In this document: positions 40,809 to 56,074 of the stretch, in pieces | How positions within the stretch are numbered: the first letter of the stretch is position 1 | Layout of the letters: every line of letters begins with the position of its first letter | Virus record (IMG/VR): IMGVR_UViG_2706796482_000001 | Coordinates: 32,001-96,000 of that record | DNA length: 64,000 nucleotides | From: a virus | Taxonomy: Duplodnaviria > Caudoviricetes | Direction: 5' to 3' (one strand) | Notes under the pieces: model-generated | The model's database searches: none | Told to the model about the DNA's origin: nothing | Seen by the model: only the letters and a program-made list of their open reading frames with translations | Translations under genes and position numbers: made by a program

Positions 40809-40892
40809 TGTGGGTCGAAGAGTTCAGTCGGTTATCTAATTAATGGAATCAGAAGCTCGTAAAGGGCACCCGACACTCACACCATATCCACA
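40809..40892 (+). ncRNA. Y RNA-like 1 (minimal, no tRNA domain)
   Basis: TGTGGGT-C-GAAG...ATCCACA terminal helix; GAGT/ACTC and GTCGG/CCGAC stems; TTATCT. Confidence 0.75.
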
Positions 40893-42538: not shown

Positions 42539-42693
42539 TTTTGGGTCGATTGAGACACGGTTATCTTACACAATGGATACTAGGTTCGATTCCTAGGGGT
42601 GCCGTAAAAAGCGCTCTGTAAAGTCATCTCAGATGTGTGTGGTAGGATGACATAAGGTACTACACTCTCTCCGTTCTCGCCACTTACCTAAAG
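42539..42693 (+). ncRNA. Y RNA-like 2 (T arm + closed acceptor stem + altered D region)
   Basis: TTTGGGT-C-GATTG...ACCTAAA; GAGA/TCTC and ACGG/CCGT stems; TTATCT; CTAGG-TTCGATT-CCTAG. Confidence 0.7.
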
Positions 42694-42701
42694 GATTTAT
42701 C

Positions 42702-43223
42702 ATGACGGTACTTCTACGAACAATTCACGGAAGCCATCTATATGGCCTTGCGCACGCCGGTTCGGATAAAGATATCTACGAAGTAGTATCTACCAAAAGA
42801 ACTAAGAGAAAGCGCAACATTAAGCAAACCATTGTAAATGGAGTTGACAAGACTACAGTAGACCTGTCAACATTCATGCACATGGTTGATGAATGTGTAC
42901 CTCAAGCACTTGAAGCGCTATGGACGCCGGTACCAGATGTGGATGAAATCCACCAGTTCCGGACACAGTATAGAGTGAATCGCGCCAAGATGAAGGATGT
43001 ATATATTCGAACCGCTCTGAACTTCGCCAAGAATGATGATGTAAAGCGTAAGCGACATGCACTTCGCTTGCTGCTGAATCTAGGCGCAGCTTTGGAATAC
43101 GGTAAATTCAATCCCCGCCTCTCAACCATGGATAAGTTTATCATTAACTCCACTATGGGAGAGACGGGAGCTTACGAAGATGTCTTTGTTGGCATCATCG
43201 ATGAAGTTCAAAAGTGGGTCTGA
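42702..43223 (+). CDS. Predicted nucleotidyltransferase (Pol-beta superfamily)
   Basis: GSHLYGLAHAGSDKD (GS...DxD) motif. Confidence 0.8.
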   Translation: MTVLLRTIHGSHLYGLAHAGSDKDIYEVVSTKRTKRKRNIKQTIVNGVDKTTVDLSTFMHMVDECVPQALEALWTPVPDVDEIHQFRTQYRVNRAKMKDVYIRTALNFAKNDDVKRKRHALRLLLNLGAALEYGKFNPRLSTMDKFIINSTMGETGAYEDVFVGIIDEVQKWV

Positions 43224-43236
43224 TGGCTCACGCCAA

Positions 43237-43313
43237 TGGGGCGTATACCCTCACTCTGATAAAGTGTAGAAAGGTTAATCGGTTACATGTGGGTTCAATT
43301 CCCACCGTCCCAA
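43237..43313 (+). ncRNA. D-arm-less tRNA-like RNA with GAT loop
   Basis: TGGGGCG/CGTCCCA; CACT-CTGATAA-AGTG; GTGGG-TTCAATT-CCCAC. Confidence 0.55.
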
Positions 43314-45162: not shown

Positions 45163-45386
45163 TGGAAGCCGTACTCGTCGGCCCCGTCATCCTATGGGTT
45201 CTGATTTCACTATACCTTGTCAAGAAGAAGGGTAAGCAGTGGCCGGAACTAATGTGGGGTATTGTCGGAGGTCTCATCCTTGCTACCATCTTTACCGGTC
45301 TTCCTAAGACCGTGTATAACATGGCTGATACAGGATGGAACGGAGTAGTCAGCGTAGCGCAGAGCATCACCAACTCTCAGGGTTGA
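45159..45386 (+). CDS. Small membrane protein
   Basis: Two hydrophobic segments; overlaps translocase stop (ATGA). Confidence 0.6.
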   Translation: MMEAVLVGPVILWVLISLYLVKKKGKQWPELMWGIVGGLILATIFTGLPKTVYNMADTGWNGVVSVAQSITNSQG

Positions 45387-45411
45387 CAGGTGCTCTGCCT
45401 CGCTGTAATAT
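45383..45411 (+). promoter_or_regulatory. Sigma70-type promoter
   Basis: TTGACA-N17-TAATAT. Confidence 0.7.
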
Positions 45412-45443: not shown

Positions 45444-45517
45444 GCGCCAGTAGCATAACGGTTCAATGCAGTAGGCTTATATCCTACCGAGAGAAGGTTC
45501 AATTCCTTCCTGGCGTA
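45444..45517 (+). tRNA. tRNA-Ile(TAT)
   Basis: GCGCCAG/CTGGCGT; GTAGG-CTTATAT-CCTAC. Confidence 0.8.
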
Positions 45518-45519
45518 CT

Positions 45520-45664
45520 TGTGGGTCGAAGATAATTGTTTATCTTCAAATCAGCTTGTTGGGGGTTCGAATCCTCCCTGGGGACTTCATTGTCCTCGGT
45601 AGCTCAATGGCAGAGCGGCTGACATTGCCCAAATGGGCTAGACGATTGTCACACCATATCCACA
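45520..45664 (+). ncRNA. yrlA: Y RNA-like 3, YrlA type (complete circularly permuted tRNA domain)
   Basis: TGTGGGT-C-GAAG...ATCCACA; order T arm, closed acceptor stem, D arm; TCAGC/GCTGA. Confidence 0.9.
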
Positions 45665-50198: not shown

Positions 50199-50309
50199 TG
50201 TGGGTCGAAAGAGTAAGTCGGTTATCTTCCTTTGAATAAGAAACAGATAGGTTCGAATCCTATGTAGCCCAAGGCACGGGCGACTCCGACTCTCACCAAT
50301 ATATCCACA
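50199..50309 (+). ncRNA. Y RNA-like 4 (T arm only)
   Basis: TGTGGGT-C-GAAAG...ATCCACA; GTCGG/CCGAC; TTATCT; ATAGG-TTCGAAT-CCTAT. Confidence 0.8.
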
Positions 50310-51081: not shown

Positions 51082-52731
51082 ATGTCTAACGCACTTAACA
51101 ACGCAGCTAAGGGTCTCAACAAGACTCCTCAGACTGTCAAGGCCAAGAGTGGTCAGGTCAAGAACAACGCTGGTGGATTCGTCTTCCAGGTTTCTGACCA
51201 GGCTCGCCTTGAGCGATTCCTGATTCTCGGTGTAGATGGCGGTACGTATTACGTCAAGGAGACCGACCACGCACGTAGTAACGTGCAGTTCCTCAACGAC
51301 ATGATTGAGCGAGACGAAGCCTCTGTACTGAACACCATTGTGGACGTGTCCGTCAATGGTCGTGCATACAAGCAGTCTCCAGTCCTGTTCGCGCTAGCCT
51401 CTGTCATTGTCCACGGACGTGACAAGCAGTCCGTCAAGGCTGTCTTCAATCGTGTTGTTCGTACAGGCACGCACCTCTATGAGGTCGTGAACTACCTGAA
51501 CACCATGGGTGGATGGGGTCGTGCAAAGCGCGAAATCGTTGCTGGATGGTTCGACAAGGATGCTGATAAGCTGGCTTACCAGATGGTCAAGTACCGTTCT
51601 CGTAAGTTTGGCGACCAGACCTGGACCATGCGTGACGTAATGCGTAAGGCTCACCCACGAGATGTTAACACGTCTGCGGCTGACTTTGCTCTCGGCAAGG
51701 AGCACGACGCTATTGATGACCTTCGGGTTATTGAGGGCTTCAAGCTCATGCAGAAGGCTCAGTCTGTCGAGGATGTTCACAGCGTTCTCCGTGAGTATGA
51801 GATGCTTTCATGGGAGACAATCCCAACTCAGTTCCTCAAGGACGTGAGTGTATGGAAGCGCATCTTCGCCAATGGTCAGCTTCGTGGTCAGGCTCTTGTC
51901 CGAAACATCACTCGTCTCGCACGAATTGGTGCTTTCCAGGACATGCGCTTCGCTGCCGCGTATGCAGGACAGCTTACGAACCAGGAAATGATTGTACAGA
52001 CTCGTCTGCACCCAATCAACTTCCTGAACGCATCTGTCGTGTACAACGACGGTCAGATGAAGCGAGTCAATGACCGCTGGGGCTTTGAATCAGAGCAGCG
52101 AGTCAAGGATTGGACAACCGAAAGTGTCATTGTTGACGCTCTCAATGAGGGCTTCCACAAGGCATTCAAGGCTGTCGAGCCTGCTGGCAAGCGTACGATG
52201 CTGGCTCTGGACGTATCAGGTTCTATGAGTGCAAAGGCTAACGGTCTCGACCTTAGCTGTGCTCAGGTTTCTGCTGCAATGTCTATGGCCATCGCTCGTA
52301 CCGAGCCTGCTCACATCATCCGAGGATTCACGTCTTCTGGTGGTGGCTACAGCTACAGGAGCAGCGGTCTGACTGACCTCGGTATCAGCGCTCGTACTGA
52401 CCTTGCTACGGCAATGCGCAGTGTGCAGCGTCACAACTGGGGTGGCACAGATTGTTCACTCCCAATGCGTTGGGCTCTTGAGAACAGGGTAGAAGTTGAC
52501 ACCTTTGTGGTTATCACTGATAACGACACATGGGCTGGCGACATTCACCCATTCCAGGCGCTCAAGGAGTACCGTAAGAAGACTGGAATTCCAGCTCGTC
52601 TGGCAGTTCTGGGAGTTCAGGCAACTGAATTCACCATTGCTGACCCAAGCGATGCGGGAATGATGGACTTCGTTGGATTTGACAGCAATGCGCCTCGTGC
52701 GCTGGCTGACTTCTCCGCTGGTCGCATCTGA
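51082..52731 (+). CDS. rsr: Ro60/Rsr RNA-binding protein (TROVE + vWA)
   Basis: QVKNNAGGFVF, RLERFLILGVDGGTYY, GWGRA, KYRSR, HP, LALDVSGSM, GGTDCSLPM, TDNDTW, GFDS. Confidence 0.95.
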   Translation: MSNALNNAAKGLNKTPQTVKAKSGQVKNNAGGFVFQVSDQARLERFLILGVDGGTYYVKETDHARSNVQFLNDMIERDEASVLNTIVDVSVNGRAYKQSPVLFALASVIVHGRDKQSVKAVFNRVVRTGTHLYEVVNYLNTMGGWGRAKREIVAGWFDKDADKLAYQMVKYRSRKFGDQTWTMRDVMRKAHPRDVNTSAADFALGKEHDAIDDLRVIEGFKLMQKAQSVEDVHSVLREYEMLSWETIPTQFLKDVSVWKRIFANGQLRGQALVRNITRLARIGAFQDMRFAAAYAGQLTNQEMIVQTRLHPINFLNASVVYNDGQMKRVNDRWGFESEQRVKDWTTESVIVDALNEGFHKAFKAVEPAGKRTMLALDVSGSMSAKANGLDLSCAQVSAAMSMAIARTEPAHIIRGFTSSGGGYSYRSSGLTDLGISARTDLATAMRSVQRHNWGGTDCSLPMRWALENRVEVDTFVVITDNDTWAGDIHPFQALKEYRKKTGIPARLAVLGVQATEFTIADPSDAGMMDFVGFDSNAPRALADFSAGRI

Positions 52732-55397: not shown

Positions 55398-55495
55398 GGT
55401 CAGTTGAAAGTCCTGAAAAGTTGGTCACTCAGTAAGGATTGTTTCATATGCAGGTCTAACCAGCCTCCGTACCGGGTTCGAATCCGGACTGACCG
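55398..55495 (+). ncRNA. tRNA-like RNA (acceptor stem + T-like arm, non-tRNA core)
   Basis: GGTCAGT/ACTGACC; CCGGGTTCGAATCCGG. Confidence 0.5.
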
Positions 55496-55504
55496 TTGAC
55501 TTAT

Positions 55505-55581
55505 GGGTTTGACGGGTGTAAGGTTACTGAAAGCCGACAATGGACCGGTAACTGTAGAGGGTTCGATTCCCTCCAAATCCA
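55505..55581 (+). ncRNA. tRNA-like RNA with enlarged central loop, no D stem
   Basis: GGGTTTG/CAAATCC; GAGGG-TTCGATT-CCCTC; GTTACTG/CGGTAAC. Confidence 0.55.
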
Positions 55582-55587
55582 CTTTAT

Positions 55588-55948: not shown

Positions 55949-56074
55949 AGGAGTATAGTTTAGTGGCAAAACAGTGAAATGCGCTGTCGAAAGAGGGAAG
56001 TTGCCGAGCTAAAGGCTGGTTCGCTTGAGTAGATATCAGAGTAGCAATCGTCGGTTCGATTCCGACTGCTCCGC
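55949..56074 (+). ncRNA. tRNA-like RNA with large insertion replacing anticodon arm
   Basis: GGAGTA/TGCTCC; D arm GTTT-AGTGGCA-AAAC; T arm GTCGG-TTCGATT-CCGAC. Confidence 0.6.

What the first reader, a model, noticed from the sequence alone, without database searches (positions are those of the whole stretch)
45520..45664. Textbook circularly permuted tRNA inside Y RNA 3
Seen in order: TCAGC, T arm GGGGG-TTCGAAT-CCTCC, loop-closed acceptor stem CTGGGGAC-TTCATT-GTCCTCGG, TA, D arm GCTC-AATGGCA-GAGC, G, GCTGA. TCAGC/GCTGA forms the anticodon-stem equivalent and opens into the Ro-binding stem instead of an anticodon loop. An extra GCCCA/TGGGC hairpin follows. This matches YrlA architecture and would be missed or miscalled by tRNA finders.
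Basis: partly seen in the sequence, partly recalled or inferred. Interest (0 to 1): 0.8.

Follow-up and report, generated by a model that had tools for sequence, protein, structure and literature searches.

The report
Phage Y RNA with inside-out tRNA

Summary
Window 45520-45664 (+) holds, in order, a Ro60-type 5' motif, a T arm, a loop-closed 7-8 bp acceptor hairpin, U8-A9, a D arm and a 5-bp anticodon-stem equivalent. tRNA finders miss it. Cut open at the acceptor loop and closed with any 7-nt loop, it is called a tRNA by ARAGORN.

The window comes from a 133.5-kb Streptomyces cluster BE phage (Samistivirus). Its Ro60 gene (TROVE plus Ro60-vWA domains) lies 5.4 kb downstream on the same strand.

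Orthologues sit in the same place (tRNA-Ile, this RNA, tRNA-Ser, tRNA-Asp, Ro60) in phages whose Ro60 is only 54-58% identical. Every helix covaries: 96.6% of cells are paired against 66% in shuffles, 36 of 37 pairs show double changes, and the Levitt 15-48 pair switches between A-U and G-C.

A model built only from these Streptomyces-phage sequences finds the published type of mycobacteriophage YrlA and bacterial YrlA-like RNAs directly upstream of their Ro60 genes.

Rfam YrlA scores 39.8 bits here, below its 69-bit cut-off. The mycobacteriophage YrlA scores 36.1, so the cut-off is simply too strict for phage members.

The element is one of four paralogous Y RNAs in this phage and the only one with a full tRNA module. 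Three related BE-cluster (Samistivirus) phages lack it. Binding to Ro60, expression and function are inferred, not shown. This scan has noted similar phage Y RNAs on other DNA.

The parts
45383..45411 (+). sigma-70-like promoter match (-35, 17-nt spacer, -10; 10 of 12) about 32 nt upstream of tRNA-Ile; candidate start of the tRNA-Ile / Y RNA transcript
   Evidence: a pattern match only, with 1.2 expected per region in shuffles
45444..45518 (+). tRNA-Ile(UAU), no encoded CCA, ending 1-2 nt before the Y RNA
   Evidence: the same tRNA-Ile then Y RNA order with a 3-nt gap in L034 and L041
45520..45664 (+). whole YrlA-type Y RNA gene (145 nt), here called Yc
   Evidence: R1 148.5 bits; Rfam YrlA 39.8 bits over 45533-45651
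45520..45526 (+). terminal helix H1, 5' strand; pairs with 45658-45664
   Evidence: helix 1 is 93% paired across 22 sequences, with G-C to A-U and U-A to C-G exchanges
45525..45531 (+). putative Ro60 contact motif GUCGAAG (fits GNCGAAN0-1G)
   Evidence: motif defined in PMC4201824; the first six bases are also conserved in the three paralogues and in orthologues
45531..45539 (+). helix H2, 5' strand (9 bp); pairs with 45642-45650
   Evidence: 9 of 9 pairs show changes on both sides, 95% paired; the competing MFE hairpin is not supported; the fold with H2 forced is within 2 kcal/mol of the MFE
45540..45550 (+). junction strand holding a U-rich motif conserved in all four paralogues and in mycobacteriophage Spud; role unknown
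45551..45622 (+). circularly permuted tRNA-like module: anticodon-stem equivalent, variable loop, T arm, closed acceptor hairpin, U8-A9, D arm, G26
45627..45638 (+). extra 4-bp hairpin with tetraloop; found only in the close (BE1) relatives
   Evidence: absent in L034, L038, L041; only a loop base varies, so there is no covariation evidence
45642..45650 (+). helix H2, 3' strand
45658..45664 (+). terminal helix H1, 3' strand
51082..52731 (+). phage Ro60 orthologue (549 aa), the presumed protein partner
   Evidence: vWA_Ro60 at 6.4e-59 and TROVE at 9.4e-32; annotated as Ro-like RNA binding protein in phage Evy
40809..40892 (+). paralogue Ya: same handle, no T arm; ends 4 nt before tRNA-Gly
42540..42692 (+). 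paralogue Yb: related handle, T arm only
   Evidence: the equivalent in Evy scores 27.7 bits with R1
50199..50309 (+). paralogue Yd: same handle, T arm only; starts 2 nt after tRNA-Asp and lies 0.8 kb upstream of Ro60

Best explanation
Window 45520-45664 is a gene for a YrlA-class Y RNA of a Streptomyces BE-cluster phage.

Shown here: the RNA has a conserved, covarying fold. A terminal helix and an internal loop carry the Ro60-type 5' motif. A 9-bp helix closes a three-way junction. From that junction rises a complete tRNA body whose chain ends are at the anticodon-stem end and whose acceptor stem is sealed by a U-rich hexaloop.

Inferred:
1. It is transcribed together with tRNA-Ile(UAU) from the promoter-like site at 45383-45411.
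2. Its 5' end is made when the CCA-less tRNA is cut at its 3' end.
3. The phage Ro60 ring binds the handle (H1 plus the motif loop), as in the Xenopus and Deinococcus Ro-Y RNA complexes.
4. The tRNA-shaped module is the effector end. It protects the RNA and recruits a tRNA-elbow-binding host factor (PNPase in the Deinococcus and Salmonella precedent), so the particle redirects or gates RNA decay and quality control during infection.
5. Because the acceptor stem has 7-8 bp, as in M. smegmatis YrlA, RNase P opening and CCA addition are possible.
For: Anatomy and significance.

Rfam: this is the best YrlA match in the whole 133.5-kb genome (39.8 bits, E 1.4e-8 per genome).

Ro60 gene: intact, on the same strand.

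Orthologues: they keep the order tRNA-Ile, Yc, tRNA-Ser, tRNA-Asp, Ro60 in loci whose Ro60 is 54-91% identical.

Covariation over 22 sequences: 96.6% of cells paired against 65.8% in shuffles and 34-49% when partners are slid. 36 of 37 pairs show changes on both sides.

Tertiary contacts: the Levitt pair 15-48 is A-U in 13 sequences and G-C in 6, never mixed. U8, A14, G18-G19 and the T loop are kept in the 21 sequences that carry a full module.

Link to the published family: model R1, built only from Streptomyces-phage sequences, finds a 142-nt match (50.2 bits, E 4.6e-12) 160 nt upstream of Ro60 in mycobacteriophage Spud. Spud is a Bxz1-type phage, and I take it to be of the same type as phage ET08, whose YrlA is shown in PMC4201824. 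R1 also finds 47-70-bit matches just upstream of Ro60 in bacterial genome bins.

Precedent for mechanism: PMC4201824 and preprint 10.1101/312249.
Against: - No transcript, end-mapping, Ro60-binding or modification data exist for this phage, so every functional step is inferred.
- The Rfam score is below the gathering cut-off.
- The gene is 5.4 kb from Ro60, outside the 4-kb rule of Chen et al.
- Three related BE-cluster (Samistivirus) phages keep Ro60 and the other Y RNAs but lack this one, so it is dispensable. Its tRNA module may therefore serve something other than Ro60.
- In orthologues the 5' motif departs from the strict GNCGAAN0-1G pattern; only the first six bases are constant.
- The pair counts were made on an alignment fitted to the model, which leans towards the structure. 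The independent pattern scan and the plain MAFFT alignment show the same exchanges.
Confidence: 0.87

Rival explanations
1. It is a Ro60-independent tRNA mimic. The handle only stabilises the RNA, and the tRNA-shaped body acts alone, for example as a decoy or regulator for a host tRNA-binding enzyme or a tRNA-targeting defence nuclease. It cannot be cut in an anticodon loop because it has none.
For: It lies 5.4 kb from Ro60. Ro60-bearing BE-cluster relatives lack it. It sits in a tRNA array in a phage carrying more than 30 tRNAs. Earlier scan notes report tRNA mimics with other protein partners on other DNA (unchecked by me).
Against: The same handle is shared with the paralogue 0.8 kb upstream of Ro60 and with YrlA-type RNAs that lie directly upstream of Ro60 in mycobacteriophage and bacterial loci. 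In more distant relatives the orthologue is 1.7-2.2 kb upstream of Ro60.
Confidence: 0.07
2. It is a dead remnant: the junction of two decayed tandem tRNA genes (T arm of one, D arm of the next) with no function of its own. Chen et al. warn about this false positive.
For: It lies in a tRNA array immediately after a tRNA. Many weak Rfam YrlA hits in this genome are such tRNA-tRNA junctions.
Against: The two acceptor strands pair with each other and covary across lineages. The closing stem, H2 and H1 also covary. The element does not overlap any called tRNA. It is kept in phages with only 54-58% Ro60 identity. No resident tRNA is a close parent; the best local score is 31 of 66.
Confidence: 0.03
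3. It is a true permuted pre-tRNA that is circularised and re-cut into a working tRNA, as in Cyanidioschyzon and some archaea.
For: The topology is the same as those pre-tRNAs (closed acceptor, ends at the anticodon stem). This parallel is discussed in preprint 10.1101/312249.
Against: There is no anticodon loop or anticodon. The stem continues into a junction, a 9-bp helix and a Ro-type handle. The preprint states that no bacterial equivalent of the splicing endonuclease has been reported. The phage encodes no RtcB or Rnl-type ligase.
Confidence: 0.02

Closest known systems
YrlA (Y RNA-like A), Rfam RF02553; Chen et al. 2014 (PMC4201824); structure in Wang et al. 2018 (preprint 10.1101/312249)
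   Same: - Order of parts: 5' Ro60 motif, closing stems, variable region, T arm, closed acceptor-like stem-loop, UA, D arm.
- tRNA tertiary-contact nucleotides and a covarying Levitt pair.
- Same strand as a Ro60 orthologue.
- 7-8 bp acceptor stem, as in the M. smegmatis member that RNase P cleaves.
- Adjacent to tRNA genes, as noted for some bacteria.
   Different: - Scores 39.8 bits against a 69-bit cut-off, as does the mycobacteriophage control (36.1 bits).
- Lies 5.4 kb from Ro60 rather than within 4 kb.
- Has a distinct 5-bp anticodon stem plus a separate 9-bp helix and a lineage-specific extra hairpin, which makes a three-way junction.
- Short 5-nt variable loop.
- Host is a Streptomyces phage, a group I did not find among described YrlA carriers.
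Mycobacteriophage YrlA (ET08 / Bxz1 type; seen here in phage Spud, L072 4662-4803)
   Same: Detected by the model built from the Streptomyces-phage RNAs (50.2 bits). It shares the handle, the U-rich junction motif and the T-AS-D order, and it is phage-borne beside a Ro-like gene.
   Different: It sits 160 nt upstream of Ro60 and is a single copy within the 11.6-kb stretch searched. GC is 60% against 49%. It has no extra 3' hairpin.
YrlB / T-arm-only Y RNAs (S. Typhimurium, M. smegmatis)
   Same: Paralogues Yb and Yd of this phage share the handle and keep only a T arm, as reported for M. smegmatis YrlB (PMC4201824).
   Different: The element under study has the full module, so it is the YrlA-like member of the set, not a YrlB-like one.
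Circularly permuted tRNA genes (Cyanidioschyzon merolae, some archaea)
   Same: Gene order 3' half then 5' half, with a closed acceptor stem.
   Different: Those genes keep an anticodon loop and are processed into real tRNAs. This element has no anticodon loop and carries a Ro handle.

Membership tests
YrlA (RF02553; Chen et al. 2014) | Score at or above the Rfam gathering cut-off (69 bits) | tested here: not met
   39.8 bits, E 2.8e-5 in the window. The control mycobacteriophage Spud YrlA scores 36.1 bits and bacterial Ro60-adjacent RNAs score 36-43 bits, so the cut-off excludes accepted kinds of member.
YrlA (RF02553; Chen et al. 2014) | T and D stem-loops with tRNA-invariant nucleotides, in the order T then D | tested here: met
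   the T loop, A14, G18-G19, A21 and U8-A9 are all present.
YrlA (RF02553; Chen et al. 2014) | Closed acceptor-like stem-loop (AS) between T and D, variable in sequence | tested here: met
   8 bp here and 7-8 bp in orthologues; all 8 pairs show changes on both sides and 98% of cells are paired.
YrlA (RF02553; Chen et al. 2014) | Levitt pair 15-48 kept through compensatory change | tested here: met
   A-U in 13 sequences, G-C in 6, no mixed case.
YrlA (RF02553; Chen et al. 2014) | GNCGAAN0-1G motif near the 5' end | tested here: met
   45525-45531 fits the pattern. In distant orthologues only the first six bases are constant.
YrlA (RF02553; Chen et al. 2014) | Best genomic match, within 4 kb of Ro60, on the same strand | tested here: inconclusive
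   It is the best match in the genome and on the same strand, but 5.4 kb upstream. Orthologues in L034, L038 and L041 are 1.7-2.2 kb upstream.
YrlA (RF02553; Chen et al. 2014) | Bound by Ro60/Rsr in cells | not testable with these tools
   Needs immunoprecipitation of the phage Ro60 from infected cells.
YrlA (RF02553; Chen et al. 2014) | tRNA-type modifications (dihydrouridine, pseudouridine 55) | not testable with these tools
   Needs modification mapping of the RNA from infected cells.
Canonical tRNA gene | Free acceptor ends and an anticodon loop; detected by tRNA finders | tested here: not met
   ARAGORN and RF00005 call nothing at 45520-45664. The module is called a tRNA only after artificial re-permutation with an added loop.
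Permuted pre-tRNA gene (algal/archaeal type) | An anticodon loop present after joining the ends, plus a processing motif for a splicing endonuclease | tested here: not met
   The stem runs into a junction and a Ro handle with no 7-nt anticodon loop. The phage has no RtcB or Rnl ligase.

The most novel reading that the evidence does not exclude
The sealed acceptor stem (7 bp plus a G-1:C73-like eighth pair in this lineage) is opened by host RNase P and given CCA, as shown for M. smegmatis YrlA. This would yield a two-piece, Ro60-bound tRNA look-alike with a free acceptor end. The phage would use it to engage the host tRNA machinery, or to soak up a tRNA-targeting defence, and the four handle-sharing Y RNAs cut out of the tRNA array would give the one phage Ro60 ring different effector ends.
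Probability: 0.12. Interest if true: 0.7.

Novelty: new member of a known kind. Interest (0 to 1): 0.4.

Why it matters
Ro60-Y RNA particles are well known from human autoimmunity and from a few bacteria, but what the tRNA-shaped end of bacterial Y RNAs does is still open.

Streptomyces BE-cluster phages are easy to grow and to engineer. They offer a compact natural test set:
- one Ro60 gene;
- four handle-sharing Y RNAs interleaved with tRNA genes;
- sister phages that differ by the clean presence or absence of the only full tRNA mimic.

Ro60 relatives occur in 112 Streptomyces-phage records, and in Evy, the annotation I checked, the RNA is not annotated. There is also a practical point. The Rfam YrlA cut-off misses phage members, including the mycobacteriophage type of the original paper, so routine annotation under-reports this family.

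Tried and rejected
- MFE fold: it places a 5' hairpin (about 45528-45547) instead of helix H2. Across 22 sequences that hairpin is 69% paired against 66% in shuffles, with almost no double changes, so I rejected it in favour of H2.
- Rfam gathering-threshold scans of the window and of seven related loci gave no YrlA call.
- Weak YrlA hits elsewhere in this and sister genomes are mostly tRNA-tRNA junctions, not further full copies.
- A search for a parent tRNA among the phage's 32 tRNAs found only generic D/T similarity.
- Searches for a phage RtcB or Rnl-type ligase, which would have supported an RNA-repair reading, found none.
- The supplementary tables of Chen et al. listing their 22 phages are not held, so I could not check the list directly.
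- Literature searches for Y RNAs in Streptomyces phages found only mentions of the Ro-like protein.
- The earlier-findings look-up for this genome was empty.
- The plain MAFFT alignment misplaces two rows in H2 and one in the anticodon stem, so I re-aligned with the model and checked the exchanges by eye.

Full report
WHAT THE WINDOW IS

The window is bases 32001-96000 of a 133.5-kb phage genome with direct terminal repeats. The region around the finding is 99.7% identical to Streptomyces phages Evy and Targaryen (genus Samistivirus, cluster BE). The window carries 32 ARAGORN tRNAs, all on the + strand. ORF 51082-52731 (+) is an intact Ro60 orthologue, with Ro60-vWA at 6.4e-59 and TROVE at 9.4e-32. 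In Evy the 173 nt between tRNA-Ile and the next CDS are unannotated, and no ORF of 40 aa or more overlaps 45520-45664.

THE OBSERVATION

Numbered as a tRNA, the module has U8, A9, a C13-G22 pair with G46, A14, A15 with U48, G18-G19, A21, G26, G53-C61, U54, U55, C56 and A58. It also has a 7-bp acceptor stem plus an eighth G-C pair under a U-rich hexaloop.

- The MFE fold returns the T, acceptor and D arms and the closing stem (z = -4.5, 0 of 200 shuffles as stable).
- ARAGORN and Rfam tRNA call nothing here.
- I cut the module at the acceptor loop and closed the other end with any of three 7-nt loops. ARAGORN then called a 74-nt tRNA each time.
- A strict pattern scan finds one such module in the window, against 0.01 per dinucleotide shuffle.

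WHAT IT IS

Rfam YrlA (RF02553) matches 45533-45651 at 39.8 bits. That is E 2.8e-5 over the window, and it is the best hit in the whole genome. It is below the 69-bit cut-off.

The Rfam alignment misses the true 5' end. The motif that Chen et al. 2014 define as the likely Ro60 contact, GNCGAAN0-1G (PMC4201824), sits at 45525-45531.

The same 5' words and a matching 3' end recur at three other intergenic sites of the window:
- Ya, 40809-40892;
- Yb, 42540-42692;
- Yd, 50199-50309.

The phage therefore has four paralogous Y-type RNAs. The finding is the third along the genome and the only one with a full tRNA module. Yb and Yd keep a T arm only, like the YrlB class, and Ya has none.

RELATIVES AND COVARIATION

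Ro60 relatives in IMG/VR gave 39 loci with 35-91% identity. An alignment-free pattern scan found the same module in close relatives (L021, L031, L032). It also found it in loci whose Ro60 is only 54-58% identical (L034-L036, L038, L041, L042, L055), with different sequences in every stem.

Gene order is kept: tRNA-Ile, this RNA, tRNA-Ser, tRNA-Asp, Ro60. The RNA starts 3 nt after tRNA-Ile in L034 and L041, and 2 nt after it in the window.

I built a covariance model (R1) from nine of these sequences with a structure I specified. It retrieves 22 full-length members. On that alignment:
- 96.6% of cells are standard pairs, against 65.8% in shuffles and 34-49% when partners are slid;
- 36 of 37 pairs show changes on both sides;
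- each of the six helices is 93-100% paired.

This alignment is fitted to the model, which favours the structure. The same exchanges are visible in the raw sequences and in the MAFFT alignment.

The Levitt pair 15-48 is A-U in 13 sequences and G-C in 6, never mixed. This is the signature reported for YrlA (PMC4201824; preprint 10.1101/312249).

The 9-bp helix H2 (45531-45539 with 45642-45650) is supported in 9 of 9 pairs. The competing 5' hairpin of the MFE fold is not supported (69% paired against 66% in shuffles). With H2 forced, the fold is within 2 kcal/mol of the MFE. The extra hairpin at 45627-45638 exists only in the close relatives and has no covariation evidence.

LINK TO THE PUBLISHED FAMILY

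In mycobacteriophage Spud (Bxz1 type, which I take to be the type of phage ET08 shown in Fig. 1D of Chen et al.), R1 finds a 142-nt match at 50.2 bits (E 4.6e-12). It lies 160 nt upstream of the Ro-like gene and has the same handle, junction motif and T-AS-D order. Rfam YrlA scores that RNA at only 36.1 bits.

In bacterial genome bins with Ro60 (Poribacteria, Chthonomonas), R1 finds 47-70-bit matches just upstream of Ro60; in a Fimbriimonadia bin the match is weaker (31 bits). In the Poribacteria and Chthonomonas loci Rfam YrlA gives 36-43 bits.

Failing the Rfam cut-off is therefore a property of the cut-off, not evidence against membership.

DISTRIBUTION

- 35 of 59 phage records that share the tRNA-Ile region carry the element.
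- Daubenski, Bmoc and Mildred21 go from tRNA-Ile to the next CDS within about 30 nt. They have no full-module match anywhere in their genomes, although they keep equivalents of Ya, Yb and Yd, and Ro60.
- Because distant relatives have the orthologue, the likeliest history is loss in those lineages.
- Ro60 relatives occur in 354 phage records: 211 Mycobacterium, 112 Streptomyces.
- In the papers I could search, BE phages are reported to encode a Ro-like protein, but no Y RNA is mentioned.

HOW IT MOST LIKELY WORKS

Shown here: the fold, its conservation, the synteny with tRNA genes and Ro60, and homology to YrlA.

Inferred:
- transcription from the promoter-like site at 45383-45411, together with tRNA-Ile;
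- release of the 5' end by 3' processing of the CCA-less tRNA;
- binding of the phage Ro60 to H1 and the motif loop;
- use of the tRNA-shaped end to resist nucleases and recruit a tRNA-elbow-binding factor, such as PNPase in the Deinococcus and Salmonella precedent.

RNase P opening of the 7-8 bp acceptor stem, as in M. smegmatis YrlA, is possible but untested. The phage has no RtcB or Rnl-type ligase, so a phage-encoded RNA-ligation role is not supported. An RlaP-like nucleotidyltransferase lies at 42702-43223.

RIVALS

- A Ro60-independent mimic cannot be excluded. The element is far from Ro60 and is dispensable in BE-cluster relatives. It is disfavoured because the handle is shared with Ro60-adjacent RNAs.
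- A decayed tRNA-tRNA junction is contradicted by covariation of the acceptor hairpin and both outer helices, and by the lack of a parent tRNA.
- A permuted pre-tRNA is contradicted by the absence of any anticodon loop.

VERDICT

This is a new, unannotated member of the known YrlA family in a new host group. It has some local peculiarities: a three-way junction, an extra hairpin, a tRNA-linked position, four paralogues, and presence/absence among sister phages.

Earlier notes of this scan describe similar handle-sharing phage Y RNAs on other DNA. I treated them only as leads.

Noticed in passing
window 40809-40892, 42540-42692, 50199-50309: Three further Y-type RNAs (Ya, Yb, Yd) share the 5' handle with the finding, and Ya and Yd also share its 3' end (Yb's differs). 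Ya has no T arm and ends 4 nt before tRNA-Gly. Yb and Yd have a T arm only, and Yd starts 2 nt after tRNA-Asp. None is annotated in phage Evy.
   Followed up: partly
window 55949-56074: An overlong (126-nt) Rfam tRNA hit at 33 bits, not called by ARAGORN and unannotated in Evy. It has native tRNA topology (acceptor, D arm, T arm) with an insert of about 55 nt in place of the anticodon arm, and the insert contains a Ro-type motif. It may be a tRNA-shaped Y RNA or an intron-bearing tRNA.
   Followed up: partly
L054 9546-9665 and 9671-9799; L058 7315-7459 and 7610-7730: Overlong (120-145 nt) Rfam tRNA hits upstream of Ro60 in distant phage contigs (directly upstream in L054, about 2.3-2.7 kb upstream in L058). 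They have long inserts at the anticodon position. They may be the native-topology counterpart of YrlA that earlier notes of this scan describe on other DNA.
   Followed up: partly
window 43237-43313: A tRNA-like element with acceptor, anticodon and T arms but almost no D arm (Rfam tRNA 30.8 bits, anticodon loop reading UGAUAAA). It is not called by ARAGORN and lies in an unannotated gap of Evy.
   Followed up: no
window 42702-43223: A 173-aa ORF matches RlaP (RNA repair pathway nucleotidyltransferase, PF10127, 23.1 bits, right at the cut-off). It lies between Yb and the D-armless tRNA-like element. The phage has no RtcB or Rnl ligase.
   Followed up: partly
L002, L003, L004 (phages Daubenski, Bmoc, Mildred21): These sister phages keep Ro60 and the equivalents of Ya, Yb and Yd but have no full tRNA-mimic Y RNA anywhere in the genome. 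This is a natural presence/absence contrast, and an exception to the rule that each Ro60 carrier has at least one tRNA-like Y RNA.
   Followed up: yes
L072 4662-4803 (mycobacteriophage Spud): The mycobacteriophage YrlA type scores only 36.1 bits on Rfam RF02553 (cut-off 69), so Rfam-based annotation misses phage YrlAs in general.
   Followed up: yes
window 55476-55584: Two T-loop-like sites outside called tRNAs and a weak partial Rfam tmRNA hit (33 bits against a 47-bit cut-off). ARAGORN calls no tmRNA in the window, although BE2 phages are reported to encode one.
   Followed up: no
L041 13199-13272: ARAGORN calls a tRNA with anticodon CUA (amber-reading, labelled Pyl) in a related phage contig.
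   Followed up: no
L034 8020-8423 and 9206-9332; L041 8203-8459 and 9207-9337: Distant relatives carry three or four Y RNAs upstream of Ro60, two or three of them head to tail. These include a second full tRNA-mimic copy about 0.7 kb upstream of Ro60 that lacks a separate anticodon-stem equivalent.
   Followed up: partly
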